A stretch of 64,000 nucleotides of DNA from Candidatus Magasanikiibacteriota bacterium (GCA_021648085.1 JAKITS010000001.1:816064-880063), one strand, 5' to 3'. Positions 17,990 to 59,459 are shown, numbered from the stretch's first letter. Notes: generated from the letters alone by a model not told the origin. Program-made: numbers and translations.

Positions 17990-18125
17990 AAAATCACGTC
18001 ATCCTGAGCGATAGCCGAAGGATCTCGGGACAATATTACCAGAACATAAAATATTCAAAGTTCTAATGATACTAAATCGAGATATTTCGACTTCGTTTCA
18101 CTCCGCTCAATATGTCGTATTTTTA
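17990..18125. mobile_element. complete MITE-like copy (17996-18118)
   Basis: cacgtcatcctgagcgatagccgaaggatctcggg - spacer (inverted relative of the 2060 spacer) - tcgagatatttcgacttcgtttcactccgctcaatatgtcgta. Confidence 0.85.
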
Positions 18126-18250
18126 TTCATAGTAATACACCAAAATTTGCCTCGGTGTGGAAGTAATTATTACAGAAATATCTTGGGTATTGATCTGAGG
18201 ATAATTTATTTATGTTATCCTGAATGAAGTCTGAAGACTATTTTTTTAAT

Positions 18251-29962: not shown

Positions 29963-29977
29963 ATTTTTTTATTTAAA

Positions 29978-30108
29978 CACATCATTCTAAACGAAATTGA
30001 AAGATCTCAAAAAAACTTAGAAGAAATACGAATATTTATAATTTTGGTTATATTATTTCGAGATATTTCGACTTCACTTTGTTTTGCTCAATATGATGTG
30101 TGTATTTT
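29978..30108. repeat. degenerate MITE-like copy in nrdA-nrdB intergenic spacer
   Basis: cacatcattctaaacgaaattgaaagatctcaa ... tcgagatatttcgacttcactttgttttgctcaatatgatgtg. Confidence 0.75.
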
Positions 30109-30157
30109 TTGTTTATCTTTTCCAATACTTAGTCTGCCCAATCGTTAGCGTGTTATT

Positions 30158-39113: not shown

Positions 39114-41468
39114 TTGTCGGCTGTTATGAATCATCAGTTTGGAGATGAAACTATAGATTTTGTTTCTCTGGAGGAGGGGGAGATTAGCAAGAAATTAAAG
39201 GACTATAATATTGCCCTTACTTTTGAGGAAGGGAGAAAAATTCAACAAGATTTTTTAGGTAGAGCACCATACATTTCAGAATGCGTGCTTTGGTCTATTC
39301 AAGGTTCAGAACACTGCTCTTACAAGAGCAGTCGTTTATTTTTAAATCAGTATATTACCGATGGGCCAAATGTAATTTTGGGTCCAACTGAAGATGCTGG
39401 GATTATAGAAATTGCAAAAGATAAAAACGGAGGCAAATATGGTTTGGTAATAAGTCATGAGTCACACAACCATCCATCCCAGATTGTGCCTTATGAAGGT
39501 GCAGCAACTGGAATTGGTGGAAATGTCCGTGATGTCTCTTGTATGGGCGCAAAAGTAATTGCTGGAGCAGACGCACTTCGTTTTGGTGAGATAGAAAAAC
39601 AAAAAACAAAATATATTCAAAATGAGGTTGTAAAAGGAATTGCAGGATATGGAAATCCAATTGGTGTGCCAATAATTGCAGGCGATACCTATTTTAATAA
39701 AGGTTATAATGACAATTGTTTGGTAAATGTTGTTCATCTTGGAGTTTTGAAAGAGGATGAAATTATACATTCTAAAGCTCCAAAAAATGCAGACGGTTAT
39801 GATTTGATTTTGGTGGGAAAAGCAACTGATAACACAGGTTTTGGTGGGGCACAGTTTGCATCGCTAGAATTGGAAGAAGATAAAAAAGAACAAAATAAAG
39901 GGGCCGTACAAGAACCGAACGCATTTCTAAAAAAACACTTACTCAAAGCAACTCATACTTTGGTAAAAAAATTAAAAAAATTAAACTTATTGAATAGGGT
40001 TGGGCTCAAAGATTTGGGCGCTGGTGGAATTAGCTGTGCAGCAGTAGAATTGGCCGATAGCGCTGGATATGGAGTAGAAGTGGATATGGACAAAGTTCAG
40101 TTTGGAATGGAGGGTTTACACCCAACTGTGGCGCTTTGTTCGGAAACTCAAGAAAGATATATGTGGGTGGCATGTCCAATTGCGACGCCAATAATTTTGG
40201 AACATTACAACAAGATTTTTGAATTGCCAAAAATGGCAAAAAATGCAAAAGCAACCGTAATAGGGAAAATAAAAAATGGTGGACAATTTGTGGTGAAACA
40301 CAAAGGAAGAGATATAATAAATGCAAAAGCAAGTGATATTACAAAAGGTTTGCTTTATGAGAGAAAATATAAAAAACCAGAATTTACACTTAAAAAACCA
40401 AAAATAAAAAATGAAGGCGGTTTGAATCAGATTTTTTTGAAAATTTTATCGCACGAAAATATAGCTTCAAAAAAAGTAATTTACGAGAGATATGACAAGC
40501 AAGTTCAAGGTGCAACAGTTGTTGAGCCTGGCGAAGCAGATGCTGGCGTGGTCCAGCCATTTTTGGATACTGATTTTCCAGACGAGATAAAAAATGTTGG
40601 TGTAGCACTTTCTGTGGATCATAACCCCAGGTTTGGGCTTATAGATTCGTATTGGGGAGCAGTAAACGCTGTGGCTGAAGCTATGAGAAATGTGACGGCT
40701 GTTGGTGCTGTGCCACAAGCTATTACAAATTGCTTAAATTATGGAAATCCAGAAAAAGAAGAGCAGATGTTTCAATTTGTAGAAGGTATAAAAGGAATTG
40801 CAAGGACTTGTAAAAATATTCATTTAAAAAATCATCCAAATTCACCAATTCCAATTATTTCTGGAAATGTTTCACTTTATAATGAGTCTGATGATGGCGC
40901 TATTCCACCAAGTCCAGTCATTGCTTGCGTTGGAAAAATAGAAGATGTTTCAAAAGTTATAAAAATGAGCTTTAAAAAAACGGGAAGTAAAATTTTTATG
41001 GTTGGGAAGCGAAGAGAAGAGTGTGGTGGAAGTGTTTATTTTGATATTTTTGGTGAGCTTGGTGCGATTGTTCCAAAAGTAAACTTCAAAGAATTGGAAA
41101 ATCAAATTTTTGCAATGACAGACGCTATAGAAGGGCGTTTAATTTTAAGTGCACACGATATAAGCGATGGTGGAATTGCTATAGCACTTGCAGAAATGAC
41201 TTTTCAAAATGAAATTGGATGTGAGGTTGAAATAAAATCAGACTTTTCAAGTGATAGAATTTTGTTTGGTGAAACCGGAGGTTTTGTAATAGAAGTTTCA
41301 GAAGAAAATGAAAAGCAGTTAAAAGAAATTTTTACAGAAAGAAATACAGGTTTGTTTGAAATAGGAAAAACAATAAAAAGAAAGAGGATTTTGATAAATA
41401 AAAAAATTGAAATTGAACTGGAAAGCGCAAAAAATGCTTGGGAAAATGGATTGAGAAGTAAATTGTAA
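39114..41468 (+). CDS. purL: phosphoribosylformylglycinamidine synthase II (large subunit)
   Basis: 784 aa; PurL motifs (ISHESHNHPS, GIGGNVRDVSCMGAKVIA, duplicated AIRS-like domains). Confidence 0.9.
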   Translation: MSAVMNHQFGDETIDFVSLEEGEISKKLKDYNIALTFEEGRKIQQDFLGRAPYISECVLWSIQGSEHCSYKSSRLFLNQYITDGPNVILGPTEDAGIIEIAKDKNGGKYGLVISHESHNHPSQIVPYEGAATGIGGNVRDVSCMGAKVIAGADALRFGEIEKQKTKYIQNEVVKGIAGYGNPIGVPIIAGDTYFNKGYNDNCLVNVVHLGVLKEDEIIHSKAPKNADGYDLILVGKATDNTGFGGAQFASLELEEDKKEQNKGAVQEPNAFLKKHLLKATHTLVKKLKKLNLLNRVGLKDLGAGGISCAAVELADSAGYGVEVDMDKVQFGMEGLHPTVALCSETQERYMWVACPIATPIILEHYNKIFELPKMAKNAKATVIGKIKNGGQFVVKHKGRDIINAKASDITKGLLYERKYKKPEFTLKKPKIKNEGGLNQIFLKILSHENIASKKVIYERYDKQVQGATVVEPGEADAGVVQPFLDTDFPDEIKNVGVALSVDHNPRFGLIDSYWGAVNAVAEAMRNVTAVGAVPQAITNCLNYGNPEKEEQMFQFVEGIKGIARTCKNIHLKNHPNSPIPIISGNVSLYNESDDGAIPPSPVIACVGKIEDVSKVIKMSFKKTGSKIFMVGKRREECGGSVYFDIFGELGAIVPKVNFKELENQIFAMTDAIEGRLILSAHDISDGGIAIALAEMTFQNEIGCEVEIKSDFSSDRILFGETGGFVIEVSEENEKQLKEIFTERNTGLFEIGKTIKRKRILINKKIEIELESAKNAWENGLRSKL

Positions 41469-41782
41469 TTTTTCTTTTTTATCCTAACCTCCCGAACATT
41501 TGAAATTTTTGGACTAATTTATTTTTAAAACTTATGGTTTTCTGAGTATACAAAAAATAATTGAAGTAGCAAATGCGGTCAATTAAATAAGTTTTAAAAA
41601 TAAATTAAGCCTAAAATTGTCAACCGTTCGGCACTTTTATTTACCTTTTGGTGTCAAAAGGTAAGGTGAGAACATTTTTATGTTATCGTTAAAGAAGCTT
41701 TACTTAAATAACATGTTTAAGGGATTTCTCACTTTGTTCGAAATGAAAGAAGTCTAAAGCTTACAAGCTAATTTATAAATTT

Positions 41783-42823
41783 ATGACCATCACTTATGAA
41801 TTTTCCGGTGTAAATATAGATGTCGGAAATGAGGCTGTAAAAAGAATAAAAAATAAAGTTACGAGCACTTTTTCGCAATCTGTTTTGACTGGAATTGGCA
41901 GTTTTGGTGCTATGTATGATTTGAAAAATCTTTGTGAAAAATATAATAATCCAGTTTTGGTGCAAAGTATAGACGGAGTTGGCACAAAACTCATGATCGC
42001 AAAAATGATGAATAAATATGACACAGTTGGAGAAGACATTGTAAATCATTGTTGTGGTGATATTTTGACAATTGGCGCAAAACCACTAACTTTTTTGGAT
42101 TATATTGCCACCGCAAAAATGGATCCACAAATTATAGAAGATATTGTAAGTGGAATGGTGAGGGCTTGCAAAGAAAATGATATTTCACTTGTTGGTGGGG
42201 AAACTGCAGAAATGCCTGGAGTTTATGTAAATGGTGAAACAGATATTGCAGGTTCAATTACTGGAGTGGTAGAAAAAAATAAACAAATTATTGGAAAAAA
42301 CATAGAAGAAGGTGATTGTGTTTTGGGTTTTACCTCGAGCGGACTGCATACAAATGGATACTCATTGGCCAGAAAAATACTTTTTGAAGTTGGAGGTTTG
42401 AGTGTTCATAGTAATTTGTCGGAATTAGACAGAAGTTTGGGGGAAGTTTTGCTTGAGCCTCATAAAAATTATACAAAACCAGTGTTTTTACTTTTGAATT
42501 TTGGAATAAATATAAAAGGAATTGCACATATTACTGGCGGAGGAATGTTGGAAAATATTCCAAGAATTTTGCCAGAAAATTGTGCTGTAAAAATTCAAAA
42601 GGGAAGTTGGCAGGTTTTACCAATTTTTACTTTGATGCAAAAAATTGGAGGTGTTGTCGAGGAAGAAATGTACAGAACATTTAATATGGGTATTGGAATG
42701 GTTTTAATTTTATCAAAAAATGAAGTAGAAAATGCGATAAACTTAATAAATAAAAGTTTTCCTGATTATAAAATTTGTGAAATTGGAAAAGTAGTAAAAA
42801 GGGAAGGGCAAGTAATTTTATGA
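41783..42823 (+). CDS. purM: phosphoribosylformylglycinamidine cyclo-ligase (AIR synthetase)
   Basis: 346 aa; VQSIDGVGTKLMIA, GGETAEMPGVY motifs; stop overlaps next start (ATGA). Confidence 0.9.
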   Translation: MTITYEFSGVNIDVGNEAVKRIKNKVTSTFSQSVLTGIGSFGAMYDLKNLCEKYNNPVLVQSIDGVGTKLMIAKMMNKYDTVGEDIVNHCCGDILTIGAKPLTFLDYIATAKMDPQIIEDIVSGMVRACKENDISLVGGETAEMPGVYVNGETDIAGSITGVVEKNKQIIGKNIEEGDCVLGFTSSGLHTNGYSLARKILFEVGGLSVHSNLSELDRSLGEVLLEPHKNYTKPVFLLLNFGINIKGIAHITGGGMLENIPRILPENCAVKIQKGSWQVLPIFTLMQKIGGVVEEEMYRTFNMGIGMVLILSKNEVENAINLINKSFPDYKICEIGKVVKREGQVIL

Positions 42824-45543
42824 GAATAGCAATAATACAATTTCCTGGAAGTAACTGTGAAGCAGAAACAATAAGAGCAGTGAACAAAGCTGGAATGCAG
42901 GCTGAATCTGTTTTTTGGAATTGTAATTATGAAAAATTAAAAGAATACGATGGTTTTGTAATTGTCGGCGGATTTTCTTATGAAGACAGATCGCGCGCTG
43001 GGATTATTTCTGCACTCGATCCAATTATGAAAGTAATTTTTGAGGAGTCTGCAAAAGGTAAACCAATTTTGGGAATTTGTAATGGCGCCCAAATTTTGGT
43101 GGAAAGTGGTTTGGTGCCCGGAATTGAAAATAAAAAAGTTGCGCTTGCAATAAATCAGCAAATAAAAGAGGGGTATGTGGTGGGAACAGGATTTTTCAAT
43201 GATTGGGTAAATATAAAAGTGTCAGCAAAATGTGCATTTACAACTAATTTGAAAGAAGGAGAAATTTTGAGAATTCCTGTGGCGCACGCAGAAGGTCGTT
43301 TTGTTTTTCCGCTTATTTTTTTGAGTGAGTTGGAAGAGTCTGGATGCACAACTTTTAAATATTGTGATAGTAGTGGGGAAGTTAGAGATGATTTTCCTAT
43401 AAATCCAAACGGATCAATTGCAAATTTGGCAGCCATTTCAAATAAAGATGGAAATGTAATGGCAATAATGCCTCATCCAGAAAGATGTGAGGAAGGTCAG
43501 ATTATTTTTATTTCTATGCGAGAGTATATAAGACAAAATAAACAGAATTTTTTGAAATTTGCGGAGGTAAAAAATAATTTTCAGGAAAAAATTGAATTAA
43601 AAGAATACAAATTGCAAAAAAATAAGTATGAAATAATAGTGGAAGAAATAATTACAGATAACGAATCTTATACTGTGGAGCAAACATTAAAAAATTTGGG
43701 AATAAATGCAAAAATTTCAAAGCAAATTCATTGGGAGATTGAATGTGAAAATATTTCAAAAGAAGATTTAACTCAAACTGGTGAATTTTTTAACACAAAT
43801 AAGGAAAAATTGGCAGAAGAAAATTATGAAGATAATTTTCTGTTGGTTCAGTATAAGGATGATATTTACGGAGTAGAAAAAAAGGAAAATTTAGAGAAAA
43901 ACCATGGAATTATTGGTTTAAAAAAAATCAAAAAAGGAATTCTTTGGAATATCACTTTGGATAATAAAACAGAATTAAAATCAGTTTTGAAAACAGGTAT
44001 ATTTTATAATAAAAATTCACAAAATTGTTATTTATATTCAAAATCTATGAATAATTTTCCAATAAGCGGATACGCTTCAGATTTGTATAGTGAAATAATT
44101 AGTAAAAACATACATAATTATTTGTCAGATACAAACTTAAATCTTCAAAACAAGAAAAAAGGGAAAGTCCGCGATATTTATGATTTGGATAATAATTTAT
44201 TAATTGTAACTACAGATAGGCAAAGTGCTTTTGATAGGGTGTTAACGCATATTCCTTTCAAGGGACAAGTTTTAAATCAGACTAGTCTTTGGTGGTTTGA
44301 CCAAACTCAACATATTATTCCAAATCACATAATTCATAGTCCGGATTCAAATGTGATTTTGGTAAAAAAATGTGAACCGTTTAAAGTGGAGATCATTGTG
44401 AGAGGTTATATAACCGGAACGACGAGTACTTCTGCGTGGACAAATTATGAAAAAGGAATTAGAAATTTTTGTGGAAATTGCTTGCCAGAAGGAATGGTAA
44501 AAAATCAAAAATTTGAAGAGCCAATTGTCACACCAACCACAAAAGATGAGTACGATGAATCTATTTCAGCTAAGCAAATAGTAGAGAGGGGTTTGATGAG
44601 TCAGGAAGATTGGGATTATGTTTACAAAAAAGCATTAGAAATTTTTACTTTTGGACAAAGAATAGCCAAGCAAAATGGATTGATTTTAGTGGATACAAAA
44701 TATGAATTTGGAAAAGCACAAGATGGAACTATAATATTGATAGACGAAGTTCACACGCCGGACTCAAGTAGATATTGGATCGCTAGAACTTATGAGGATA
44801 GATTTGCGAGTGGACAGGAGCCAGAAAATATAGATAAGGAATTTTTGCGTTTGTGGTTTATTGAAAATTGTAATCCGTATGAAGATGAAAATTTACCAGA
44901 AGCACCAAAAGATTTAGTTGTAGAGCTTTCTCGTAGATACATTCGTTTGTACGAGATGATTACAGGAAAAGAATTTAAATTTCCAGATATGACTTTGAAT
45001 TTGCATAATAGAATTCAGGAAAATTTAAAAAAATATACTGCAAAAAAAGTGGAATCTACTTATGCAAATATTGGATTGGAAGAAATAAAAAGTGAAGAAA
45101 TTCATAAAGAAAAAATAAAGCCAGAAATTGAAAAAATAACTATAAAACCAAAAGCAATTTTAATTTTGGGTTCAATTTCAGACGAAGAATTTACAAAAAA
45201 TATTACAGATGAATTGGAAAAATACGGAATTAATTTTGAGCAATTTGTAGCTTCTGCTCATAAACAACCACGAGAAGTTTTACAGATTTTAGATAATAAT
45301 AAAGATAAAAAGCAGATAGTTTATATTACAATTGCGGGGCGTTCCAATGCTTTGTCTGGTTTTGTTGCTGGAAATTCTAGCTTTCCTGTGATAGCGTGTC
45401 CACCACTCAAAGATAAGTTTGATATGATGGTAAACATAAATTCATCTCTTCAAATGCCAAGTAATGTTCCGGTTTTGACAATTTTGGATCCAAAAAATAC
45501 AGCACTTGCGGTAAAAAGAATTTTTGATTTATGTGTGGAATAG
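42820..45543 (+). CDS. four-domain fusion: FGAM synthase glutaminase (PurQ) + PurS-like region + SAICAR synthetase (PurC) + class II AIR carboxylase (PurE)
   Basis: 907 aa single ORF; N-term MRIAIIQFPGSNCE...GICNGAQIL (PurQ triad Cys/His); middle PurS-like ferredoxin-like repeat(s); GKVRDIYDLDNNLLIVTTDRQSAFD (PurC); C-term ILGSISDE...SAHKQPRE...AGRSNALSGFVAGNSSFPVIACPP (class II PurE signature, like animal PAICS). Confidence 0.85.
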   Translation: MRIAIIQFPGSNCEAETIRAVNKAGMQAESVFWNCNYEKLKEYDGFVIVGGFSYEDRSRAGIISALDPIMKVIFEESAKGKPILGICNGAQILVESGLVPGIENKKVALAINQQIKEGYVVGTGFFNDWVNIKVSAKCAFTTNLKEGEILRIPVAHAEGRFVFPLIFLSELEESGCTTFKYCDSSGEVRDDFPINPNGSIANLAAISNKDGNVMAIMPHPERCEEGQIIFISMREYIRQNKQNFLKFAEVKNNFQEKIELKEYKLQKNKYEIIVEEIITDNESYTVEQTLKNLGINAKISKQIHWEIECENISKEDLTQTGEFFNTNKEKLAEENYEDNFLLVQYKDDIYGVEKKENLEKNHGIIGLKKIKKGILWNITLDNKTELKSVLKTGIFYNKNSQNCYLYSKSMNNFPISGYASDLYSEIISKNIHNYLSDTNLNLQNKKKGKVRDIYDLDNNLLIVTTDRQSAFDRVLTHIPFKGQVLNQTSLWWFDQTQHIIPNHIIHSPDSNVILVKKCEPFKVEIIVRGYITGTTSTSAWTNYEKGIRNFCGNCLPEGMVKNQKFEEPIVTPTTKDEYDESISAKQIVERGLMSQEDWDYVYKKALEIFTFGQRIAKQNGLILVDTKYEFGKAQDGTIILIDEVHTPDSSRYWIARTYEDRFASGQEPENIDKEFLRLWFIENCNPYEDENLPEAPKDLVVELSRRYIRLYEMITGKEFKFPDMTLNLHNRIQENLKKYTAKKVESTYANIGLEEIKSEEIHKEKIKPEIEKITIKPKAILILGSISDEEFTKNITDELEKYGINFEQFVASAHKQPREVLQILDNNKDKKQIVYITIAGRSNALSGFVAGNSSFPVIACPPLKDKFDMMVNINSSLQMPSNVPVLTILDPKNTALAVKRIFDLCVE

Positions 45544-48296
45544 TAGGGATTTATTCTCAAAAGTCAGTTTCATTGGATTTGTGTGATGCACTCATCCATC
45601 TTCAGCATAGGGGTACAGATGCTGGCGGTATGCTCACTTATGATTCTAGATTTCATACTAAAAAAGGAATGGGTTTGGTAAGAGATATCTTTAAAGAAAA
45701 TATCTTAAAAAATTTAACAGGAAATTGGGGGATTGCAAATAATAGATATACAACAACAGGATCTTCAAAAAAACTTTTCAATGTTCAGCCATTTAAAACC
45801 AGTTCTCCTTATGGAATTTCTTTGGTGCATAATGGAAATATTACAAATTCACAAGTATTAAAAAAAGAATTGGAAGAGCAAAATAAATATTATTGTAATT
45901 CTGAGTCTGATACAGAAATTATTTTGGGTTTGTTTGCATCTGAATTGCAAAAAAATAACGAAGGATTAGATTTTTTTGATAATTTGTGTAAATCAGTTGA
46001 GGCTGTTTTTGATAAAGCTTATGGAGGGTATTCAATTGTGGGAATTATCGCAGGAAAAGGAATGTTTGCTTTTAGAGATCCAAATGGAATCAGACCTTTT
46101 GTCTGGGGAAAAAGAGAAAATGAAAATGGACAAAGTGATTTCATTTTTTCTTCTGAAAATACAATGTATCATACTTTAAATTTTAAAATGCAGGGAAATG
46201 TTTTGCCTGGAGAAGTAGTTTTTATCAACAAAAAAGGTGAGATGTGCAGAAAACGTTTGCGAAAAGAAATTTTTACACCGTGTGCTTTTGAATATGTTTA
46301 TTTGGCAAGGCCGGATGCGGTGATAAATAGTATAAGTGTTTATAGAGCAAGACTTAGAATGGGAGATAATTTGGCAAAAAAATGGAAAAGATTTTATCCA
46401 GACATAACGCCAGATATTGTGATTCCTGTTCCATTTTGTGCAAATACTATGGCACTTTCTGTGGCACATATTTTGAAAGTTCGATATTCTGAAGGTTTGC
46501 ATAAGAATTCTTTTGTTGGGCGTACTTTCATAATGCCTGGACAAGAAAAGCGTAGAAAGTCTGTTTTACAAAAATTATCACCTCAAGAATTGGAAATTAA
46601 AGGTAAGAATGTAATGCTTGTCGACGATTCAATAGTTCGTGGGACAACAAGTAAAGAGGTAGTTAAAATGGTTCGAGGTGCTGGCGCAAAAAAAGTATAT
46701 TTTGTATCCGCTTCGCCACCTATAAAATATCCAGATTTTTATGGTATTGATATTTCCACCCAACAAGAATTGATTGCTGCAAACAAATCTATGGAAGAAA
46801 TACGCCAATTTATGGATGTAGATGTTTTACTTTATCAAGATATAGAAGATTTGACAGAAGCCATCACGAGAAAAGGAAATCACAGTATAGATAGACTTTC
46901 TATGCCATATTTTGATGGTTGGTATGTGACTGGAGTTGTAAATAAAATCCAAGAAAAAAAAGAAAAAAAAGTAAAAAAAATATTGATAGTTGGTTCTGGA
47001 GCGCGCGAACATGCAATTTTGCGAGCATTTTTGCGTTCAAAACAAAAAATTTCACTATATTGTTTTGGGACCAGTTTAAATATAGGAATAAAAAACTATT
47101 GTGTAGATTATATGGTTGGAAAAATGACTGACATAGGACAAATTTTGGATTTTGCGAAAAATAATAATATAGACCTTATAATTATTGGGCCAGAAATACC
47201 GCTGAATGCTGGACTTGCAGATTTGTTGTGGAAAAATAATATTCCAACTGTTGGTCCTACAAAAAAACTTGCACAACTTGAGACGAGTAAGTCGTTTACA
47301 AGAAAATTGATGGAAAAATATGGAATTAGCGGTCTTCCAAAATATAAAATTTTTAATTCGACAGAAGGAGTTGGGGAATTTCTATATGAATTGGATGGAA
47401 ATTATGTAATAAAAGTAGATGGATTGATGGGTGGAAAAGGAGTAAAAGTTTCTGGCGAACATTTGAAAAATTTTGAGGAAGCTTTGGAATATTGCAGAGA
47501 AATTATAAGTAAAAAAAGTAGTTTTGTAATAGAGGAAAAATTTATTGGTCAGGAATTTTCTTTAATGAGTTTTTCAGATGGGATAAATTTAGCACATATG
47601 CCAGTTGTACAAGATCATAAAAGAGCTTTTGAAAATGACAAAGGGCCAAATACTGGTGGAATGGGAAGTTATTCTTGTGCAGACCATTCACTTCCTTTTT
47701 TGACTGAGAAAAATGTTCAAAAAGCAAAAGGAATTACGCGTTCAATTTTGAATGCATTAAAAAAAGAATTTGGTGAATTGTATAAAGGAATTCTGTATGG
47801 CGGATTTATGGTTACAAAGAATGGTATAAAAGTAATAGAATATAATGTTCGTTTTGGTGATCCAGAATCTCTGAATGTTCTAAGTCTTTTAGAGTCAGAT
47901 TTTGTAGAAATTTGCGAAGGGATAACGAGTGGAAGGTTAGATAAGTGCGATATAAATTTCGCAAAAAAAGCTACTGTTTGTAAATATGCTGTACCAATTG
48001 GATATCCAACAAAACCCGTAAAAGGAGAAAAAATTGACATTTCCGAGGTGAAAAATCAAGAAAATTTATATTTGGCTTCTGTGGATTTGTTAAATGGTGA
48101 TTTAATTGAAATAGGATCGCGTACTACAGCATTTGTGGGAATTGCGAATACAGTTTTTGAGGCTGAAAAAGAAGCAGAAAGTGAAATTCAAAAAATAAAA
48201 GGTCCGCTTTTTCACAGGAAAGACATTGGAAAAGAGGAAACTATAGAAAACAAAATTAAATTTATGGAAAAAATATGCAATCAGAAAAAAAACTAA
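45531..48296 (+). CDS. fusion: amidophosphoribosyltransferase (PurF) + GAR synthetase (PurD)
   Basis: 921 aa; N-term MCGIVGI Ntn-amidotransferase, PRTase motif VMLVDDSIVRGTTS; from about aa 480 KKILIVGSGAREHAIL and ATP-grasp (PurD). Confidence 0.9.
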   Translation: MCGIVGIYSQKSVSLDLCDALIHLQHRGTDAGGMLTYDSRFHTKKGMGLVRDIFKENILKNLTGNWGIANNRYTTTGSSKKLFNVQPFKTSSPYGISLVHNGNITNSQVLKKELEEQNKYYCNSESDTEIILGLFASELQKNNEGLDFFDNLCKSVEAVFDKAYGGYSIVGIIAGKGMFAFRDPNGIRPFVWGKRENENGQSDFIFSSENTMYHTLNFKMQGNVLPGEVVFINKKGEMCRKRLRKEIFTPCAFEYVYLARPDAVINSISVYRARLRMGDNLAKKWKRFYPDITPDIVIPVPFCANTMALSVAHILKVRYSEGLHKNSFVGRTFIMPGQEKRRKSVLQKLSPQELEIKGKNVMLVDDSIVRGTTSKEVVKMVRGAGAKKVYFVSASPPIKYPDFYGIDISTQQELIAANKSMEEIRQFMDVDVLLYQDIEDLTEAITRKGNHSIDRLSMPYFDGWYVTGVVNKIQEKKEKKVKKILIVGSGAREHAILRAFLRSKQKISLYCFGTSLNIGIKNYCVDYMVGKMTDIGQILDFAKNNNIDLIIIGPEIPLNAGLADLLWKNNIPTVGPTKKLAQLETSKSFTRKLMEKYGISGLPKYKIFNSTEGVGEFLYELDGNYVIKVDGLMGGKGVKVSGEHLKNFEEALEYCREIISKKSSFVIEEKFIGQEFSLMSFSDGINLAHMPVVQDHKRAFENDKGPNTGGMGSYSCADHSLPFLTEKNVQKAKGITRSILNALKKEFGELYKGILYGGFMVTKNGIKVIEYNVRFGDPESLNVLSLLESDFVEICEGITSGRLDKCDINFAKKATVCKYAVPIGYPTKPVKGEKIDISEVKNQENLYLASVDLLNGDLIEIGSRTTAFVGIANTVFEAEKEAESEIQKIKGPLFHRKDIGKEETIENKIKFMEKICNQKKN

Positions 48297-50524
48297 AAAT
48301 TGGAGTTTTGGGTTCAACTCGCGGAACGAGTATGCAGCCTATAATAGACGCAATCGAACAGAATTTGTTGAAGGCATCTGTAGAATTGGTTGTTTCTAAT
48401 GTTGAAAATGCTTTTATATTAAAAAGAGCAAGAATGTGTGGAATAGCCGCAACATACATAAATGATTTTGGGAAAAATCGTGAAGATTATGATAAAGAGG
48501 TTTCAAAAATTTTTGAATCTTTTGAGGTTGATTTGGTTTTATTGATTGGATATATGAAGATATTATCCCAATTTTTTGTTCAGAAATGGGCTGGAAAAAT
48601 TATGAATGTCCACCCTTCACTTTTACCAGCTTTTACAGGAAAAATGGATGAACAAGTTCATTACGATGTCTTAGTTTCAGGAGATAAAGAGAGCGGTTGT
48701 ACAATTCACTTTGTAGATGAGGGGGTAGATTCTGGCGACATAATCATACAAAAAAAGTGTTCAGTTTTGTCGCACGATACAGTAATTTCTCTGAAAGACA
48801 AAGTTCAGAAATTGGAGGGCAAAGCTTTCATAGAAGCAATAAAAGAATTTGCGAATGGTAGTATTTTATCTTACAATAGTGAGGTTCAAGATCAAATACA
48901 AAATAGGAGTGTGGAGATGTGTGGAAAAACAGCCCTTTTGTCAGTTTACAATAAAACAGATATAGATATTTTTGCGCGCAAACTTATTTATCTTGGTTGG
49001 AAAATTGTAGCTTCTGGCGGAACAGCAAGATTTCTAAAAGAGCGGGGAATTGAAGTTCAGGATGTTGCAGATTTTGTTGGAGGCGGGGCAATTTTAGGGC
49101 ATAGAGTTGTGACATTGGATAGAAAAATCCACGCAGCACTTTTGTCTAAAGATTTGCCAGAAGATAACGAAGAGCTAAAAAGACTTGGTGTACCAAAAAT
49201 TGATTTGGTTTGTGTGGATCTTTATCCCTTGGAAGATGAGATCTCTTCTGAAGGAAGTACACAAGAATCTGTAATAGAAAAAACTGATATTGGCGGGCCG
49301 ACACTGCTCCGCTCCGCCGCAAAAGGTAGAAGAATTGTTGTTTGTGATTTTGAAGATAGAGACAAAACGTTGAAATGGCTTGCGATGGGTAAACCATACG
49401 AAAATAAGTTCATTACAAATTTGGTTGCAAAAACCGAAGAGATTGTTGCTAGATATTGTCTAATTTCTGCAAATTTTCATAGTGAAGGAAAAATAAAAGG
49501 AATAGTTGGTTTTGAGAGGCAAAAATGTGGTTATGGTGAAAATGCACAACAAAAAACAGCAAGTTTGTTAACTTACAAAAATAACGATCCTTTGAGTTTT
49601 AATAATTTTAAACAGGTTCGTGGTGTGCCAATGAGTTATAATAATTGTTGTGATGTAGATAGAATGGTTCAAACAATAACCCATATCGCAGCTGGTTTTG
49701 ATATAAATTTTGGCGAGGTTCCCTTTATTGCAGTTGCTGTAAAACACGGAAATCCATGTGGTGTAGCAATTGGAGAAGACAAGAAAATAGTTCTACAAAG
49801 AGTAATTGACGGTGATCCACGTGCAATTTTTGGAGGAATGATTATGACAAATTTTTCATTGGGTGTAAATGATACTGAGGTTATTTTAAACTATAAAATG
49901 GAAAAAGGAGGCAATAGACTTTTGGATGGGGTGGTTGCGCCTGCAATAGATGAAAATACAAGAGATTTACTAAAAAGACGAACTGGGCGTTGTAGAATGG
50001 TAGAAAATCCAGCTTTAGCAGAAATGTATTCAGGCAGTTTGGATAAAAATCCTAGGTTTCGTTATGTGAGAGGGGGATTTTTGCTGCAAGATAATTATGA
50101 TTTTGTAATGAATTTTACAAATACAGTAATTGAAAAACAAGGTATTATTTCAGAAGACATTGAAAAAGATTTAATTCTAGCTTGGGCTATTGGTTCAACA
50201 AGTAATAGTAACGCAATAACTTTGGTAAAAAACAGAATGTTGATTGGAAATGGTGTTGGTCAGCAAGATAGAGTTGGGGCTTGTGAACTTGCTATCAAAA
50301 AAGCCACAGACCAAGGACATTTGATTGTGGATTCCGTAGCTTATAGTGATAGCTTTTTCCCATTTTTAGATGGACCAGAAAAACTGTATGAAAGTAGAGT
50401 TAAAGCAATTCTAACTTCTAGTGGGTCTGTGCGAGATAAAGATCTGAAAGATTTTTGTCTAGTAAATGGAATTACACTTTATATGATCCCGGATAAAATA
50501 GGCAGAGGTTTTTTTGGACATTAA
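48275..50524 (+). CDS. fusion: GAR transformylase (PurN) + bifunctional AICAR transformylase/IMP cyclohydrolase (PurH)
   Basis: 749 aa; N-term KIGVLGSTRG...HPSLLPAFTG (PurN), then MGS-like LLSVYNKTDI...ASGGTARFLKERGI and AICARFT domain (PurH). Confidence 0.9.
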   Translation: MQSEKKLKIGVLGSTRGTSMQPIIDAIEQNLLKASVELVVSNVENAFILKRARMCGIAATYINDFGKNREDYDKEVSKIFESFEVDLVLLIGYMKILSQFFVQKWAGKIMNVHPSLLPAFTGKMDEQVHYDVLVSGDKESGCTIHFVDEGVDSGDIIIQKKCSVLSHDTVISLKDKVQKLEGKAFIEAIKEFANGSILSYNSEVQDQIQNRSVEMCGKTALLSVYNKTDIDIFARKLIYLGWKIVASGGTARFLKERGIEVQDVADFVGGGAILGHRVVTLDRKIHAALLSKDLPEDNEELKRLGVPKIDLVCVDLYPLEDEISSEGSTQESVIEKTDIGGPTLLRSAAKGRRIVVCDFEDRDKTLKWLAMGKPYENKFITNLVAKTEEIVARYCLISANFHSEGKIKGIVGFERQKCGYGENAQQKTASLLTYKNNDPLSFNNFKQVRGVPMSYNNCCDVDRMVQTITHIAAGFDINFGEVPFIAVAVKHGNPCGVAIGEDKKIVLQRVIDGDPRAIFGGMIMTNFSLGVNDTEVILNYKMEKGGNRLLDGVVAPAIDENTRDLLKRRTGRCRMVENPALAEMYSGSLDKNPRFRYVRGGFLLQDNYDFVMNFTNTVIEKQGIISEDIEKDLILAWAIGSTSNSNAITLVKNRMLIGNGVGQQDRVGACELAIKKATDQGHLIVDSVAYSDSFFPFLDGPEKLYESRVKAILTSSGSVRDKDLKDFCLVNGITLYMIPDKIGRGFFGH

Positions 50525-50527
50525 AAA

Positions 50528-50556
50528 ATAAAATCGATGTACTAACATCGATTTTT
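50528..50556. terminator. bidirectional intrinsic terminator after pur operon / PAS gene
   Basis: aaaatcgatgtactaacatcgatttttt. Confidence 0.8.
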
Positions 50557-51161: not shown

Positions 51162-51725
51162 TTAACTCTCACGCCCCCCATAATCTCCTGTGTCAGTGTT
51201 TACTAAAATTGTCTCTCCTTCTTTTATAAAAATTGGCGCATGAATTAGTAAACCATTTTCTAATCCAATTTCTTTTGTCACATTTCCACTTGCTGTATCA
51301 CCTTTTACGGCTGGTGGAGAATCGACAACTTTATAAGAAATTTTTCTTGGAAGTTGGATTGCAACTGGATTTCCTTCGTGTAAAACAGTGATTACAACCA
51401 AACCTTCTTTTAAGAATTTTCCGTCTGTTCCAATTAAATCTTCGTCCATTTCAACTGTTTCATAAGTTTCATTATTCATAAAAGAATATTTTCCAGAATT
51501 TTTATATAAAAATTGCATATTTTTTCTTTCCACATGTGCAATGTCTATATTTTCTCCACTTTTGTATGTAATTTCAATTGTTTTACCACTTCCAATTCCT
51601 TTCATTTTAGTTTTAGAAAAAGCACACCCTTTTCCAGGATTTACAAATTTAAAATCTACAACAACATAAAGATCATTTGCGTGTTTTATGACAGCACCTT
51701 TTTTGATATCAGTAGTATCACCCAT
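51162..51725 (-). CDS. efp: translation elongation factor P
   Basis: 187 aa; KOW-like N-domain with NPGKG loop (modifiable Lys), OB domains; terminator 51122-51152. Confidence 0.9.
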   Translation of the reverse strand: MGDTTDIKKGAVIKHANDLYVVVDFKFVNPGKGCAFSKTKMKGIGSGKTIEITYKSGENIDIAHVERKNMQFLYKNSGKYSFMNNETYETVEMDEDLIGTDGKFLKEGLVVITVLHEGNPVAIQLPRKISYKVVDSPPAVKGDTASGNVTKEIGLENGLLIHAPIFIKEGETILVNTDTGDYGGRES

Positions 51726-51773
51726 ATTTTTTTATTAATTTCTAAACTCTAAGGTAAGAATACATAAAATAGG

Positions 51774-52766
51774 CTATTTTTTCAAGTTAAATAATTTATT
51801 TGTAGGAAGTAAAAGTATATTTTCTATTTTTTTACAATTTGCAAAAAGCATTATCAATCTATCAACACCAAGTGCAATTCCAGCAGATTTCGGCATTTTT
51901 TCTACAGCATTTATAAATTCTTCATCAATTCCAAAGTGTGGATTATCCTTTTCTATTCTTTTTCTTTGTTCATTTTCGTCTGTTAATTCAGAAAATGCAT
52001 TTGCCAACTCAATTCCGTTTACATAAAGCTCAAAACGCTCTGCATACTTTGGATTTTCTTTTGAAATTTTTGCAAGCGATGCCATTTGTGCTGGATAGTT
52101 ATAAACTATTGTTGGAACTTTTTTTCCTAGATATTCTTCTATTTTATTTAAGAAAATTCTATAAAATAAGTCTTCAAAAGGTTCATTTTTGCCTGCATTA
52201 AAACCTAATTTTTTACAAAGTTTATACATTTTTGAAGTTTCACAGTATTTATCTAAATTTACATTAACATATTTTTGCCATAATTCTTTCATTGAAATTT
52301 TTTCCCATTTTTTTTCAATATTTACTCCATTAATTTTTGTAATTCCAGTTTTTTGAGATATTAATTTAAGTAAATCTTCACAGTCTTTCATTATTTTATA
52401 AAAATCTTCTTCGGCTCTGTACCACTCAAGCATTGTAAATTCTGGATTATGATGTCCGCCAAAAGATTCGCAATTGCGAAAGCAGTGCGTAATTGTAAAA
52501 ATTTTTTTAAATCCGCTAGCTAAAGTTTTCTTCATTGTATATTCTGGAGAAGTATGTAGAAATCCGTTGAAATTTTCTTTTTTTTCATTTTGAATTTCTA
52601 CAGAAATAGGCGAGAGGTTTGGCTCTGAATCTGGATATTTTATTAAAATAGGTGGGTCTAATTCCAAAAAACCTTCATTTTCAAAAAAGTTTCTAATAAT
52701 TTTAATTATTTTTGCACGAAGTACAAAATTTTTTTCATTTTTACTAATGTGTAAGATCTGCTCCAT
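51774..52766 (-). CDS. epmA: EF-P lysine beta-lysyltransferase (class II LysRS paralog)
   Basis: 330 aa; class II aaRS motifs (FRNCESFGGHHNPEFTMLEWY; ERFELYVNGIELANAFSE; GIALGVDRL), no anticodon-binding domain; adjacent to efp. Confidence 0.75.
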   Translation of the reverse strand: MEQILHISKNEKNFVLRAKIIKIIRNFFENEGFLELDPPILIKYPDSEPNLSPISVEIQNEKKENFNGFLHTSPEYTMKKTLASGFKKIFTITHCFRNCESFGGHHNPEFTMLEWYRAEEDFYKIMKDCEDLLKLISQKTGITKINGVNIEKKWEKISMKELWQKYVNVNLDKYCETSKMYKLCKKLGFNAGKNEPFEDLFYRIFLNKIEEYLGKKVPTIVYNYPAQMASLAKISKENPKYAERFELYVNGIELANAFSELTDENEQRKRIEKDNPHFGIDEEFINAVEKMPKSAGIALGVDRLIMLFANCKKIENILLLPTNKLFNLKK

Positions 52767-53175: not shown

Positions 53176-54306
53176 ATGTTTGCAAAAAACAAAGCTAATT
53201 TAATAGGTTTGGTTTACAAAAAGGTTTTTAAGCCTGTTTTTTTTCGTCTAGATCCAGAATTTGTACACGATAGATTTATAAAAGTAGGAAACCTTATGGG
53301 TAAATGCAAGGTTGCAAAATTTTTTACAAGAAATCTTTTTGATTATAAAAATTCTGCACTTCAGCAAAATATTTTAGATATTAATTTTGAGAATCCAATT
53401 GGACTTTCTGCAGGTTTTGATAAAAATGGAAAATTGATAGATATTTTAGGTGGTGTTGGTTTTGGTTTTATGCAAGTTGGAACTATTACAAATGAATATT
53501 ACAAAGGAAACCCAAAACCAAGATTGCATAGACTTATAAAATCCAAAGCACTGATTGTTTATTATGGTTTAAAAAATGATGGAGTAGAAAAAATTATAGA
53601 AAGACTAAAAAAATCCAAAAAAACTAATTTTGTAAAAGGAATTTCAATAGGAAAGACAAATTGTACAAGAACAGCAGGACTTGATGCTGGAGTAGAAGAT
53701 TATTTTGAGTGTTATAAAAAGGTTTTGGAAAGCGGGGTTGGAGATTTTTATACTTTAAATATTTCTTGTCCAAACACTTTTGGTGGCGAACCTTTTACAA
53801 AACCAGAAAAATTATTAAAACTTTTAGAGAAAATTTATTCTATTCAAAGCAAAAAACCTATTTTTTTGAAAATGCCAATAAATTTACCGTGGGTTGAGTT
53901 TGAAAAACTTTTGGAAATAATAGTCCAATACAAAATAAACGGAGTAATAATCGGAAATTTAAATAAAAATTTTCAAGATAAAAGCTTGAAAGATAAAATT
54001 TCAGAAAATATGAAAGGAGGAATAAGTGGAAAACCTACAAAAAAACTTTCAAATGAATTAATTTCCAAAACTTATAAAAAATACGGAGATAATTTGGTAA
54101 TTGTGGGTGTTGGTGGAATTTTTTCTGCAGAAGACGCTTATGAAAAAATAAAACTAGGTGCATCTTTGGTACAATTAATAACAGGAATGATTTTTGAAGG
54201 ACCACAATTAATAGGAAAGATAAATATAGAATTGGTTAAGCTTATGAAAAAGGACGGATTTGAGAAAATTTCTCAAGCTGTTGGGGTTTCACATAAAAAG
54301 ACTTGA
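53176..54306 (+). CDS. pyrD: dihydroorotate dehydrogenase (quinone-type/class 2-like)
   Basis: 376 aa; N-terminal extension, NPIGLSAGFDKNG, TIGVGGIFSAEDAYEKI motifs. Confidence 0.85.
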   Translation: MFAKNKANLIGLVYKKVFKPVFFRLDPEFVHDRFIKVGNLMGKCKVAKFFTRNLFDYKNSALQQNILDINFENPIGLSAGFDKNGKLIDILGGVGFGFMQVGTITNEYYKGNPKPRLHRLIKSKALIVYYGLKNDGVEKIIERLKKSKKTNFVKGISIGKTNCTRTAGLDAGVEDYFECYKKVLESGVGDFYTLNISCPNTFGGEPFTKPEKLLKLLEKIYSIQSKKPIFLKMPINLPWVEFEKLLEIIVQYKINGVIIGNLNKNFQDKSLKDKISENMKGGISGKPTKKLSNELISKTYKKYGDNLVIVGVGGIFSAEDAYEKIKLGASLVQLITGMIFEGPQLIGKINIELVKLMKKDGFEKISQAVGVSHKKT

Positions 54307-55576: not shown

Positions 55577-56950
55577 ATGGCAATTCTTAAAAAGAAAAAA
55601 ATGAAACTAAAAAGGCGAAGCCATCATTTTAAATTGGTTAAAAAAATAGACTTAAAAAAACAAAAAGGTAGTAAAAAAAAGAATGTAAATAAAGTATCTG
55701 CAAATAAAAAAATAGTAACAGCAAAAAAAATAAATAAATTGATTGAGAGTGCAAAACACAAACATGTCCAAGATATTATAGTGGAGCTATTCAATGGTTT
55801 GATGGTGTATGCTGCTATCGGTGAGTCTGCCTCAGATTTGCATATAGAACCATGGGAGGAGGAAGCTGTTATTCGTATTCGTGTAGATGGTATTTTATAC
55901 GATAGGTTTAAAGTTAATAAAACTATCTATAGGCATCTTGTAGCACTTTTGAAGATTCTTACAAAAATGAGAACAGACGAGCACAGGTCTCCACAAGATG
56001 GGCGTTTTGAGTTTGATACTCCCACAAACGATGTAGATGTGCGAGCCTCTATTATTCCAACATCAAACGGAGAAAAAGTAGTTTTACGGTTTCTTTCTGG
56101 TAAATCTCATAAATTAACATTAACACAACTCGGATTTTTGAAGCACGATTTAAAAAAAGTTTCCAAAGCAATTCACAAAAATTGGGGAATGATTTTGGCA
56201 ACAGGTCCAACAGGAAGTGGAAAGACAACATCAATTTATGCAATTTTGGAAGAGATAAATAAAAGAGAGGTTAACATAACCACAATTGAAGATCCCGTAG
56301 AGTTTGAAATAGAGGGTGTAAACCAAAGCCAGGTCGACAGAAAGGCAAAGCTAGATTTTGCTACTGGACTTCGCTCTCTTTTGAGGCAAGATCCTGATGT
56401 AATTATGGTTGGTGAGATTCGCGATCACGAAACAGCAAAAATAGCAGTAAATGCAGCTATGACTGGACACAAACTACTCTCAACTCTGCACACAAATAAC
56501 GCCGCTACAACTGTTTTAAGACTTATAGATATGGGAACAGAGCCTTATTTGGTAGCCTCAACACTTATTTGTGCTATTGCTCAGCGGTTGGTTCGCAAGT
56601 TGTGTTCAGAATGTAAAGAAAAAAGAACTTTTACAAAAACTAAGGCTAAAAAAATTCTAAAAAAAGAACATATAGATTTATTATTTGGAAATAAAAAATC
56701 AATCAAAATATCAGCCGCAACTGGGTGCTACGAGTGTGGAAATACAGGATACAAAGGGCGTTTAGGTGTTTATGAGGTTTTGGAGAATACACCTGAAATA
56801 CAGGAGTTAATTTTGAAACATGTAAATAGTACAAAACTACAAGAAATAGCTATTAAAAATGGGATGACAACAATGGCAGAAGATGGATTGAAAAAAGTTG
56901 CTTGCCATGACACCACATTAGAGGAATTTATGAGGGTTATGCAAGAGTAA
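55577..56950 (+). CDS. pilB: type IV pilus / type II secretion assembly ATPase (PilB/GspE family) with Lys-rich N-terminal extension
   Basis: 457 aa; Walker A GPTGSGKTT, Asp box, His box, C-terminal tetra-Cys motif CSECK...CYECGNTG. Confidence 0.9.
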   Translation: MAILKKKKMKLKRRSHHFKLVKKIDLKKQKGSKKKNVNKVSANKKIVTAKKINKLIESAKHKHVQDIIVELFNGLMVYAAIGESASDLHIEPWEEEAVIRIRVDGILYDRFKVNKTIYRHLVALLKILTKMRTDEHRSPQDGRFEFDTPTNDVDVRASIIPTSNGEKVVLRFLSGKSHKLTLTQLGFLKHDLKKVSKAIHKNWGMILATGPTGSGKTTSIYAILEEINKREVNITTIEDPVEFEIEGVNQSQVDRKAKLDFATGLRSLLRQDPDVIMVGEIRDHETAKIAVNAAMTGHKLLSTLHTNNAATTVLRLIDMGTEPYLVASTLICAIAQRLVRKLCSECKEKRTFTKTKAKKILKKEHIDLLFGNKKSIKISAATGCYECGNTGYKGRLGVYEVLENTPEIQELILKHVNSTKLQEIAIKNGMTTMAEDGLKKVACHDTTLEEFMRVMQE

Positions 56951-56961
56951 TATATTTTAAT

Positions 56962-58080: not shown

Positions 58081-58083
58081 TAA

Positions 58084-58572: not shown

Positions 58573-58573
58573 T

Positions 58574-59458: not shown

Positions 59459-59459
59459 T

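What the first reader, a model, noticed from the sequence alone, without database searches (positions are those of the whole stretch)
42820..45543. Four-domain purine gene fusion PurQ-PurS-PurC-PurE with an animal-type (class II) PurE
A single 907-aa ORF carries the FGAM-synthase glutaminase (MRIAIIQFPGSNCE...GICNGAQIL), a PurS-like segment, SAICAR synthetase (GKVRDIYD...TDRQSAFD) and a C-terminal AIR carboxylase. The carboxylase signature AGRSNALSGFVAGNSSFPVIACPP and SAHKQP match class II PurE (as in human PAICS), not the bacterial class I N5-CAIR mutase. No purK is present in the operon, consistent with direct CO2-dependent AIR carboxylation. The PurC-PurE(II) pairing mirrors eukaryotic PAICS; adding PurQ and PurS to the same polypeptide is, to my knowledge, unusual.
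Basis: partly seen in the sequence, partly recalled or inferred. Interest (0 to 1): 0.75.

Follow-up and report, generated by a model that had tools for sequence, protein, structure and literature searches.

The report
Four-enzyme purine fusion protein, CPR bacterium
One 907-residue protein of a tiny uncultivated bacterium joins four purine-synthesis parts (PurQ glutaminase, a doubled PurS adaptor, SAICAR synthetase and an animal-type, PurK-independent AIR carboxylase); the fusion is real and recurs in relatives, but every part is a known enzyme.

Summary
ORF 42820-45543 (+) is intact and encodes PurQ (res 1-240), a tandem pair of PurS-like repeats (261-406), a long-type PurC (433-741) and a short class II PurE (776-907). 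Flexible linkers separate them.

The same architecture occurs in 16 protein clusters at 46-57% identity from independent metagenomes, so it is not an assembly artefact.

Structurally it matches the N-terminal domain of large PurL.

The PurE domain is class II by these criteria:
- It carries SAHK and AGRSNALSG.
- It scores 92 bits to T. denticola AIR carboxylase and 28 bits to E. coli PurE.

No purK lies in the window or in any of 19 class II loci. Two relatives whose fusion lacks the PurE domain carry purK plus a class I purE in that operon slot instead.

Unfused (purQS | purC | purE-II) and three-domain intermediates also exist. The PurC domain is not PAICS-type, so the resemblance to PAICS is convergent.

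The window operon also has PurF-PurD and PurN-PurH fusions. purB was not found.

Verdict: a real, apparently undescribed domain architecture made of known parts. Moderate interest.

The parts
39114..41468 (+). purL (small PurL, the FGAM synthetase subunit), presumed docking partner of the PurQ-PurS2 module
   Evidence: NCBIfam NF002290 scores 690.6 bits (cutoff 648). Pfam finds FGAR-AT_linker plus AIRS/AIRS_C twice.
41783..42823 (+). purM (AIR synthetase). Its stop codon overlaps the fusion's start codon (ATGA).
   Evidence: TIGR00878 scores 383 bits. The sequence at 42781-42840 shows GGGAAGGG..ATGA.
42820..45543 (+). The 907-aa fusion gene: PurQ, PurS-PurS, PurC, PurE(II)
42820..43539 (+). 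PurQ glutaminase domain (residues 1-240). The triad Cys87, His219, Glu221 is invariant in the family.
   Evidence: TIGR01737 scores 223 bits, above cutoff. Invariant columns C87, H219, E221 in alignment A3.
43600..43812 (+). PurS-like repeat 1 (residues 261-331), beta-alpha-beta-alpha-beta
   Evidence: AF2 models, Foldseek match to the large-PurL N-domain, Pfam PurS hits in homologues.
43834..44037 (+). PurS-like repeat 2 (residues 339-406)
   Evidence: hhalign of repeat 1 against repeat 2 gives 96% probability, E 4e-9. AF2 models.
44116..45042 (+). PurC, SAICAR synthetase domain (residues 433-741), long type
   Evidence: NF009251 scores 434.8 bits (cutoff 371). Best PDB matches are yeast Ade1 1a48 and Mycobacterium 6yvq.
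45043..45141 (+). Disordered Lys/Glu-rich linker (residues 742-774)
   Evidence: pLDDT below 50 in the full-length AF2 model.
45145..45540 (+). Class II PurE (AIR carboxylase) domain (residues 776-907), short form without the C-terminal helix
   Evidence: Pfam AIRC matches profile positions 3-127 of 148. Best PDB match is T. denticola PurE 3rg8 at 91.8 bits, against 28 bits for E. coli 1qcz. SAHKQP and AGRSNALSG are present.
45531..48296 (+). purF-purD fusion (921 aa). Its start overlaps the end of the four-domain gene by 13 nt.
   Evidence: TIGR01134 matches residues 2-451 and TIGR00877 matches 483-903. The N-terminus is MCGIVG.
48275..50524 (+). purN-purH fusion (749 aa)
   Evidence: TIGR00639 matches residues 8-196. 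Pfam finds MGS plus AICARFT_IMPCHas.
50530..50555 (+). Terminator-like hairpin at the end of the operon

Best explanation
The gene encodes a real multifunctional purine-biosynthesis protein of a Magasanikbacteria-type (CPR) bacterium. It arose by in-frame fusion of three adjacent operon genes: purQ-purS2, purC and a class II purE.

Module 1 is PurQ plus a covalent PurS pseudo-dimer. It is inferred to dock onto the separately encoded small PurL and so form FGAM synthase (step 4). The tandem PurS supplies in one chain the two PurS copies that are equivalent to the N-domain of large PurL.

Module 2 is PurC followed by class II PurE. It is inferred to carboxylate AIR directly with CO2, without PurK and without ATP (step 6), and to pass CAIR to the ATP-driven SAICAR synthetase (step 7), as in animal PAICS.

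The modules are joined by flexible linkers. PurM (step 5) is translationally coupled just upstream.

Shown here: domain identities, conserved active-site residues, conservation of the fusion, the unfused intermediates, and the link between class II PurE and absence of purK. Inferred: enzyme activities, docking to PurL, any channelling, and the oligomeric state.
For: Domains and residues:
- Domain hits.
- The catalytic Cys87/His219/Glu221 of PurQ and the PurC motifs are invariant across 22 family members.
- The PurE residues that line the human PAICS AIRc site (GSxSD, SAHK, AGRSNxL; listed in PMC9376930) are all present.
- The best PDB matches of the PurE domain are the characterised class II enzymes T. 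denticola PurE and insect and human PAICS.

PurS pseudo-dimer:
- AF2 pLDDT 87.8 with two beta-alpha-beta-alpha-beta repeats.
- Foldseek top 17 hits are Salmonella or human large PurL. Single PurS structures 2cuw and 1vq3 each fit one half.
- 11 of 32 homologous linkers hit Pfam PurS.
- Repeat 1 matches repeat 2 at 96% probability.
- PMC3815217 states that two PurS units equal the large-PurL N-domain.

Natural comparisons:
- In L006 and L005 the fusion stops after PurC. A purK plus a purE with SAHRTP/AGGAAHLPG sits in the operon, in L006 in the very slot between purC and purB.
- In L001, L087, L088 and L091 the class II domain is fused and there is no purK.
- purK is present in 0 of 19 class II loci and in 10 of 20 class I loci, Fisher p = 4e-4.
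- L008 and L012 carry purQS | purC | purE-II as three genes with their own ATG codons, in the same order.
- L090 has the three-domain fusion plus a standalone 137-aa class II PurE.

The full-length AF2 model has four confident domains, disordered linkers at 243-255, 409-419 and 742-774, and pTM 0.50.
Against: - No biochemical data exist.
- purK absence is shown only for 64 kb of a roughly 984-kb genome. An indirect search for a purK or purB protein from the same contig was inconclusive, because the purB positive control also failed.
- purB, needed right after PurC, is not in the window.
- The PurE domain lacks the C-terminal helix of solved PurEs, so octamer formation and full activity are not assured.
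- The window's own PurS region is too diverged for any direct sequence hit.
- The fusions could be selectively neutral by-products of operon compaction rather than functional couplings.
Confidence: 0.85

Rival explanations
1. The long ORF is an artefact: adjacent genes purQS, purC and purE were joined by assembly or sequencing indels at the junctions.
For: In L008 and L012 the same three units are separate genes in different frames, so the junctions are places where one indel could fuse or split genes. Reads for this window cannot be inspected.
Against: Sixteen clusters of four-domain proteins at 46-57% identity come from independent assemblies and sources. P0002 is on at least 24 contigs. Four further operons carry the same uninterrupted gene. 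The linkers align across members.
Confidence: 0.02
2. The fusion is real but functionally neutral. It is a by-product of genome streamlining in a tightly packed operon (loss of stops between overlapping genes), with no channelling or assembly benefit. The domains act as they would separately.
For: Relatives show different, apparently independent fusions of neighbouring pur genes: PurF-PurD and PurN-PurH in the window, PurN-PurH in L087, PurD-PurN in L088, none in L001. Fused, partly fused and unfused states are interleaved in a rough tree. The AF2 model shows beads on a string with low pTM. Genes in the operon overlap by 4-22 nt.
Against: The fused activities are not random. PurQ with PurS, and PurC with PurE(II), are known physical or channelling partners (PMC3815217; PMC8988938 abstract). 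The four-domain form is retained down to about 46% identity.
Confidence: 0.3
3. The C-terminal PurE-like domain is not an active AIR carboxylase. Because it is truncated, it serves as an oligomerisation or scaffold domain, or it is a class I-like mutase using non-enzymatically formed N5-CAIR. The true carboxylation step is encoded elsewhere.
For: The domain lacks about 20-30 C-terminal residues relative to T. denticola PurE, PAICS and the Pfam model. It scores below the NCBIfam purE cutoff, 101 against 149.6. The rest of the genome was not seen.
Against: All substrate-contacting motifs of class II enzymes are intact, including the universal His and the class II-specific Lys. Standalone short versions of 128-137 aa are the only PurE in otherwise complete operons L008 and L012. 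No purK accompanies any of them.
Confidence: 0.08

Closest known systems
Animal PAICS (bifunctional SAICAR synthetase / class II AIR carboxylase; PDB 2h31, 4ja0)
   Same: The order is the same: SAICAR synthetase at the N-terminus, class II PurE at the C-terminus. The AIRc active-site motifs GSxSD, SAHK and AGRSNxL are shared. No PurK is needed.
   Different: The PurC domain here is the roughly 310-aa Ade1/mycobacterial/plant type. Human PAICS aligns only through its PurE domain. The PurE domain lacks the last 30 or so residues of PAICS. A 33-residue disordered linker joins the two domains. Two further modules, PurQ and PurS2, sit upstream. The fusion is probably an independent one.
Treponema denticola PurE (bacterial class II AIR carboxylase; PDB 3rg8/3rgg; Tranchimand et al. 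2011, as cited in PMC10484210 and PMC9376930)
   Same: It is the best solved relative of the C-terminal domain (91.8 bits). The AGRSNALSGFV stretch is identical and the SAHK motif is shared.
   Different: TdPurE is a standalone 159-aa protein. The domain here is about 130 aa, fused, and ends at TdPurE position 133 or so.
Large PurL (single-chain FGAR amidotransferase; PDB 1t3t) and the PurS2-PurL-PurQ complex (T. maritima 3d54)
   Same: The components are the same: a glutaminase, a PurS-type pseudo-dimer or dimer, and a synthetase. The tandem PurS region superposes on the large-PurL N-domain. Two PurS equal one N-domain (PMC3815217).
   Different: The connectivity differs. Large PurL runs N-domain, PurL, glutaminase. 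Here the glutaminase precedes the PurS pseudo-dimer, and PurL is a separate polypeptide.
Two- and three-domain relatives in metagenomes: PurQ-PurS2 (about 410-450 aa), PurQ-PurS2-PurC (about 680-760 aa) and PurC-PurE(II) (about 450-525 aa)
   Same: The modules are homologous and in the same order, and the operon context is shared.
   Different: They lack one or two of the four modules. Two of the three-domain forms whose operons were read pair with PurK plus class I PurE (L005, L006). A third pairs with a standalone class II PurE (L090).

Membership tests
Class II PurE (AIR carboxylase, EC 4.1.1.21) | PurE/AIRC fold and domain | tested here: met
   Pfam PF00731 at 1.1e-31. AF2 shows a five-strand alpha/beta/alpha core with pLDDT of about 80-93.
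Class II PurE (AIR carboxylase, EC 4.1.1.21) | 40s-loop SAHK (Lys after the catalytic His) instead of the class I SAHR | tested here: met
   SAHKQP is present. PMC10484210 notes Arg in class I against Lys304 in human PAICS. The class I controls in L005 and L006 show SAHRTP.
Class II PurE (AIR carboxylase, EC 4.1.1.21) | 70s-loop AGRSN(G/A)L instead of the class I AGG(A/S)AHLPG | tested here: met
   AGRSNALSG is identical to T. denticola PurE.
Class II PurE (AIR carboxylase, EC 4.1.1.21) | Closer to experimentally characterised class II than to class I enzymes | tested here: met
   Scores of 91.8 bits (TdPurE), 77 (Bombyx PAICS) and 69 (human PAICS), against 52 bits or less for class I mutases and 28 for E. 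coli.
Class II PurE (AIR carboxylase, EC 4.1.1.21) | No PurK (N5-CAIR synthetase) partner in the genome | tested here: inconclusive
   None in the 64-kb window and none in 19 class II loci. The rest of the roughly 984-kb genome could not be read, and the indirect search was uninformative.
Class II PurE (AIR carboxylase, EC 4.1.1.21) | Catalyses AIR + CO2 to CAIR without ATP | not testable with these tools
   Needs an enzyme assay or complementation.
Class II PurE (AIR carboxylase, EC 4.1.1.21) | Full-length subunit with the C-terminal helix seen in solved octameric PurEs | tested here: not met
   The alignment ends at residue 130 of 159 in TdPurE, at 393 of 425 in PAICS, and at 127 of 148 in the Pfam model. 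The same holds for the standalone relatives. This is a difference in architecture, not in the catalytic motifs.
PAICS-type bifunctional enzyme | SAICAR synthetase domain N-terminal to the class II AIR carboxylase in one chain | tested here: met
   Residues 433-741 are followed by 776-907.
PAICS-type bifunctional enzyme | SAICAR synthetase domain of the PAICS subfamily (common descent of the fusion) | tested here: not met
   The best PDB hits for the PurC domain are yeast Ade1 and mycobacterial PurC at about 149 bits. Human PAICS 2h31 aligns only at the PurE domain.
PurS / large-PurL N-terminal domain | Sequence match to the PurS family model | tested here: inconclusive
   The window sequence gives no hit at E up to 10, and a profile search against PDB sequences gives none. 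However, 11 of 32 homologous linkers hit PF02700 (best 4.6e-7) and one hits FGAR-AT_N.
PurS / large-PurL N-terminal domain | Two beta-alpha-beta-alpha-beta units forming a PurS-dimer-like domain | tested here: met
   AF2 pLDDT 87.8. Foldseek top 17 hits are large PurL (E 9e-6 to 4e-3). PurS structures 2cuw and 1vq3 fit one half at rmsd 2.7-3.0. hhalign of repeat 1 against repeat 2 gives 96%.
PurS / large-PurL N-terminal domain | Forms a complex with small PurL and PurQ | not testable with these tools
   Small PurL is encoded 1.3 kb upstream, and no other purS or purQ is in the window. Binding is inferred.
PurQ (FGAM synthase glutaminase subunit) | Family model above the curated cutoff, with the Cys-His-Glu triad | tested here: met
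   TIGR01737 scores 223.1 against 177.8. C87, H219 and E221 are invariant.
PurC (SAICAR synthetase) | Family model above the curated cutoff | tested here: met
   NF009251 scores 434.8 against 371.

The most novel reading that the evidence does not exclude
The four-domain protein is the hub of a bacterial purinosome-like particle. The short class II PurE domains oligomerise, perhaps in a non-canonical way because the C-terminal helix is missing. Each arm carries PurC and a PurQ-PurS2 module that docks small PurL, and possibly PurM. Steps 4-7 of purine synthesis would then be physically coupled and run with one ATP and one gene fewer than in typical bacteria.
Probability: 0.2. Interest if true: 0.6.

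Novelty: new variant of a known kind. Interest (0 to 1): 0.4.

Why it matters
- It extends the known range of purine-pathway gene fusions (PAICS, GART, large PurL) with a bacterial architecture that links non-consecutive steps.
- It reinvents both the PAICS pairing and a permuted large-PurL arrangement.
- Close relatives carry the fused class II PurE, a standalone class II PurE, or PurK plus class I PurE in the same operon. That is a natural experiment on how the AIR-to-CAIR step is swapped between the ATP-dependent and the CO2-dependent routes.
- It shows that a CPR bacterium, a group usually described as lacking nucleotide synthesis, can encode a compact pathway: eleven activities in five genes here.
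- In practice these proteins are under-annotated. NCBI names this one only as SAICAR synthetase, which can make metabolic reconstructions wrongly score PurQ, PurS and PurE as missing.

Tried and rejected
- Pfam on the linker alone, as a whole and in halves, found no PurS.
- A profile of 32 linkers against PDB sequences gave only chance hits.
- HMMs of each PurS repeat against small ORFs in the fetched loci did not recover standalone purS genes.
- The PMC and bioRxiv full-text library turned up no description of this fusion. The Tranchimand 2011 paper is not held.
- I tried to locate purK and purB of the same genome by looking for hits on a 984,181-bp contig. Neither appeared among the best 120 hits. 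Because the purB control failed, the purK negative carries no weight.
- The 50%-identity representative library did not list four-domain representatives at the top, so it gave no family count. It did show many two- and three-domain relatives.
- Rfam found no purine riboswitch or other RNA near the operon, only tRNAs.
- The frameshift or assembly-artefact reading was considered and rejected.
Full report
**Observation**

The ORF at 42820-45543 (+) is uninterrupted and encodes 907 residues.

- Pfam finds GATase_5 (residues 2-226), SAICAR_synt (446-690) and AIRC (780-902).
- NCBIfam places residues 1-225 in PurQ (TIGR01737, 223 bits, cutoff 178) and 433-741 in PurC (NF009251, 435 bits, cutoff 371).
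- The generic purE model scores 101 bits, below its cutoff of 150.
- The exact protein is in NCBI as a "Candidatus Magasanikbacteria" MAG protein on a 984,181-bp contig. It is named there only as SAICAR synthetase.

**Is the fusion real?**

- Sixteen clusters (at 90% identity) of 820-946-aa proteins carry PurQ, PurC and AIRC together at 46-57% identity to the window. They come from NCBI, JGI, ENA and Logan assemblies.
- The relative P0002 is found on at least 24 contigs from independent samples.
- Four other operons carry the same uninterrupted gene: L001, L087, L088 and L091.
- An assembly or frameshift artefact is therefore excluded for the family and very unlikely for this window. Reads could not be inspected.

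**The middle segment**

The window's residues 227-445 give no Pfam hit. A profile of 32 homologous linkers finds nothing in PDB sequences. Other evidence identifies the segment:

- Eleven of those 32 linkers individually match Pfam PurS (best 4.6e-7), and one matches FGAR-AT_N.
- An AF2 model of residues 251-442 is confident (pLDDT 87.8) and shows two consecutive beta-alpha-beta-alpha-beta units.
- Its 17 best Foldseek matches in the PDB are all single-chain large PurL (Salmonella 1t3t and mutants, human PFAS). Standalone PurS structures (2cuw, 1vq3) each fit one half at rmsd 2.7-3.0.
- Profile-profile comparison of repeat 1 with repeat 2 gives 96% probability, E 4e-9.

The segment is thus a covalent PurS pseudo-dimer, the equivalent of the large-PurL N-domain. 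PMC3815217 states that two PurS units correspond to that domain and that the T. maritima complex is PurSSLQ. No separate purS or purQ is in the window. Small PurL is encoded just upstream at 39114-41468.

**The PurE domain**

- The best solved relatives are T. denticola PurE (3rg8, 91.8 bits), Bombyx PAICS (77) and human PAICS (69). Class I mutases score 52 bits or less, and E. coli scores 28.
- T. denticola PurE is cited as a bacterial AIR carboxylase in PMC10484210 and PMC9376930.
- The residues listed as lining the human AIRc site are all present here as GSISD, SAHK and AGRSNAL. Those residues are Gly273-Asp277, Ser301-Lys304 and Ala329-Leu335.
- The Arg-to-Lys change after the catalytic His is the class I / class II difference noted in PMC10484210.
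- One difference from solved enzymes stands out. The domain stops about 20-30 residues early: TdPurE position 130 of 159, PAICS 393 of 425, Pfam 127 of 148. It therefore lacks the C-terminal helix. Standalone relatives of 128-137 aa share this.

**Comparative test of the class II reading**

- In L006 the fusion ends after PurC and is followed by purK and a purE with SAHRTP/AGGAAHLPG, then purB. L006 is a close relative with the same folD-purA-purL-purM synteny.
- L005 is similar.
- In L001, L087, L088 and L091 the class II domain is fused, purB follows directly, and no purK lies within 6-10 kb.
- Across all fetched loci, purK accompanies 0 of 19 class II PurEs and 10 of 20 class I PurEs. Fisher p = 4e-4.
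- Genome-wide absence of purK in the window's organism could not be tested. An indirect search was uninformative because the purB control also failed.

**Origin**

- L008 and L012 are MAGs labelled Neomarinimicrobiota and Fidelibacterota, with GC of 42% and 52%. They have the same operon order but with purQ-purS2, purC and the short purE-II as three genes, each with its own ATG.
- L090 has the three-domain fusion plus a standalone class II PurE.
- PurC-PurE(II) two-domain fusions occur in other phyla (L031, L042, L045, L051).
- The representative library holds many PurQ-PurS2 proteins of about 410-450 aa, and longer X-PurC-PurE forms of about 630-650 aa.
- A rough NJ tree of the shared region interleaves fused, partly fused and unfused forms (no support values).
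- The PurC domain is of the Ade1/mycobacterial long type, and human PAICS aligns only through PurE. The PAICS-like pairing is therefore convergent.

**Operon context**

- The purM stop overlaps the fusion's ATG (ATGA), with a GGGAAGGG Shine-Dalgarno-like stretch upstream.
- The fusion's end overlaps purF-purD by 13 nt, and purF-purD overlaps purN-purH by 22 nt.
- A terminator-like hairpin follows at 50530-50555.
- PurF keeps its N-terminal Cys (MCGIVG).
- Relatives fuse other neighbours: PurN-PurH in L087 and PurD-PurN in L088. In L001 all are separate.
- The window thus packs eleven activities into five genes.
- It lacks purB, purA, folD, guaB and guaA, which flank the operon in relatives.

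**Mechanism**

The full-length AF2 model has four confident domains joined by disordered linkers (243-255, 409-419, 742-774) and a low pTM of 0.50. This is a beads-on-a-string picture.

Most likely:
- PurQ-PurS2 docks small PurL to make FGAM synthase with built-in 1:2 stoichiometry.
- PurE(II) carboxylates AIR with CO2, and the tethered ATP-driven PurC pulls the reaction forward, as proposed for PAICS (PMC8988938 abstract).
- Dropping PurK saves a gene and an ATP. PMC3261824 argues this pays only at high CO2.

These functional steps are inferred, not shown. The main rival is that the fusions are neutral by-products of operon compaction.

**Verdict**

It is a new domain-architecture variant built from well-known enzymes. 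It is already present, under-annotated, in public databases, and is undescribed in the literature I could search. Interest is moderate.

Noticed in passing
window 45531-48296 and 48275-50524: Two further fusions lie in the same operon: PurF-PurD (921 aa, N-terminal Cys retained) and PurN-PurH (749 aa). Relatives show other pairings (PurN-PurH in L087, PurD-PurN in L088, PurF-PurD in L007) or none (L001). Neighbouring pur genes seem to fuse repeatedly and independently in this lineage.
   Followed up: partly
window 1-64000 (operon 39114-50524): purB, purA, folD, guaB and guaA flank the operon in relatives L001, L087 and L088 but are absent from the window. purB follows the fusion directly in relatives but is missing here. 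A search for a purB on the same 984-kb contig found none among the best 120 hits, so pathway completeness in this genome is unresolved.
   Followed up: partly
window 45145-45540; L090 4331-4744; L008 6266-6718; L012 7252-7689: The class II PurE of this family is short (about 128-137 aa) and lacks the C-terminal helix present in T. denticola PurE, PAICS and class I PurEs. Whether it still forms the canonical octamer is unknown.
   Followed up: partly
L014, L015, L017, L019, L020, L022, L023, L040: In several loci, mostly from CPR MAGs (Nomurabacteria, Saccharibacteria, Paceibacteria, Minisyncoccia), a class I-like PurE has SAHR but AGGAAHLAG rather than ...LPG. It has no purK within 10 kb. This may be a PurK-independent class I-like subgroup.
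   Followed up: no
L008 and L012, compared with L001 and the window: MAGs labelled Marinimicrobia/Fidelibacterota share the whole pur operon order with Magasanikbacteria. The nearest relatives of the Magasanikbacteria PurB include many Marinimicrobia proteins at 61-64% identity. This suggests lateral transfer of the operon, or misbinning.
   Followed up: partly
window 12919-18250: dnaN (12919-14037, -) and dnaA (14403-15833, -) are followed by a 2.4-kb AT-rich stretch (GC about 0.28) with no ORF of at least 150 aa. This is a likely chromosomal origin region. Gene orientation and GC skew switch sign further on, around 33 kb.
   Followed up: no
window 28967-32917, 53176-54306, 51162-52766: Other nucleotide-metabolism genes lie nearby: class I ribonucleotide reductase NrdA (with ATP-cone hits) and NrdB, and dihydroorotate dehydrogenase. 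There is also an EF-P gene next to a 330-aa class II tRNA-synthetase-like gene (EpmA/PoxA-like).
   Followed up: no
window 55577-60020: A type IV pilus / type II secretion cluster: a T2SSE ATPase, a T2SSF platform protein, and two or three proteins with prepilin N-methylation motifs.
   Followed up: no
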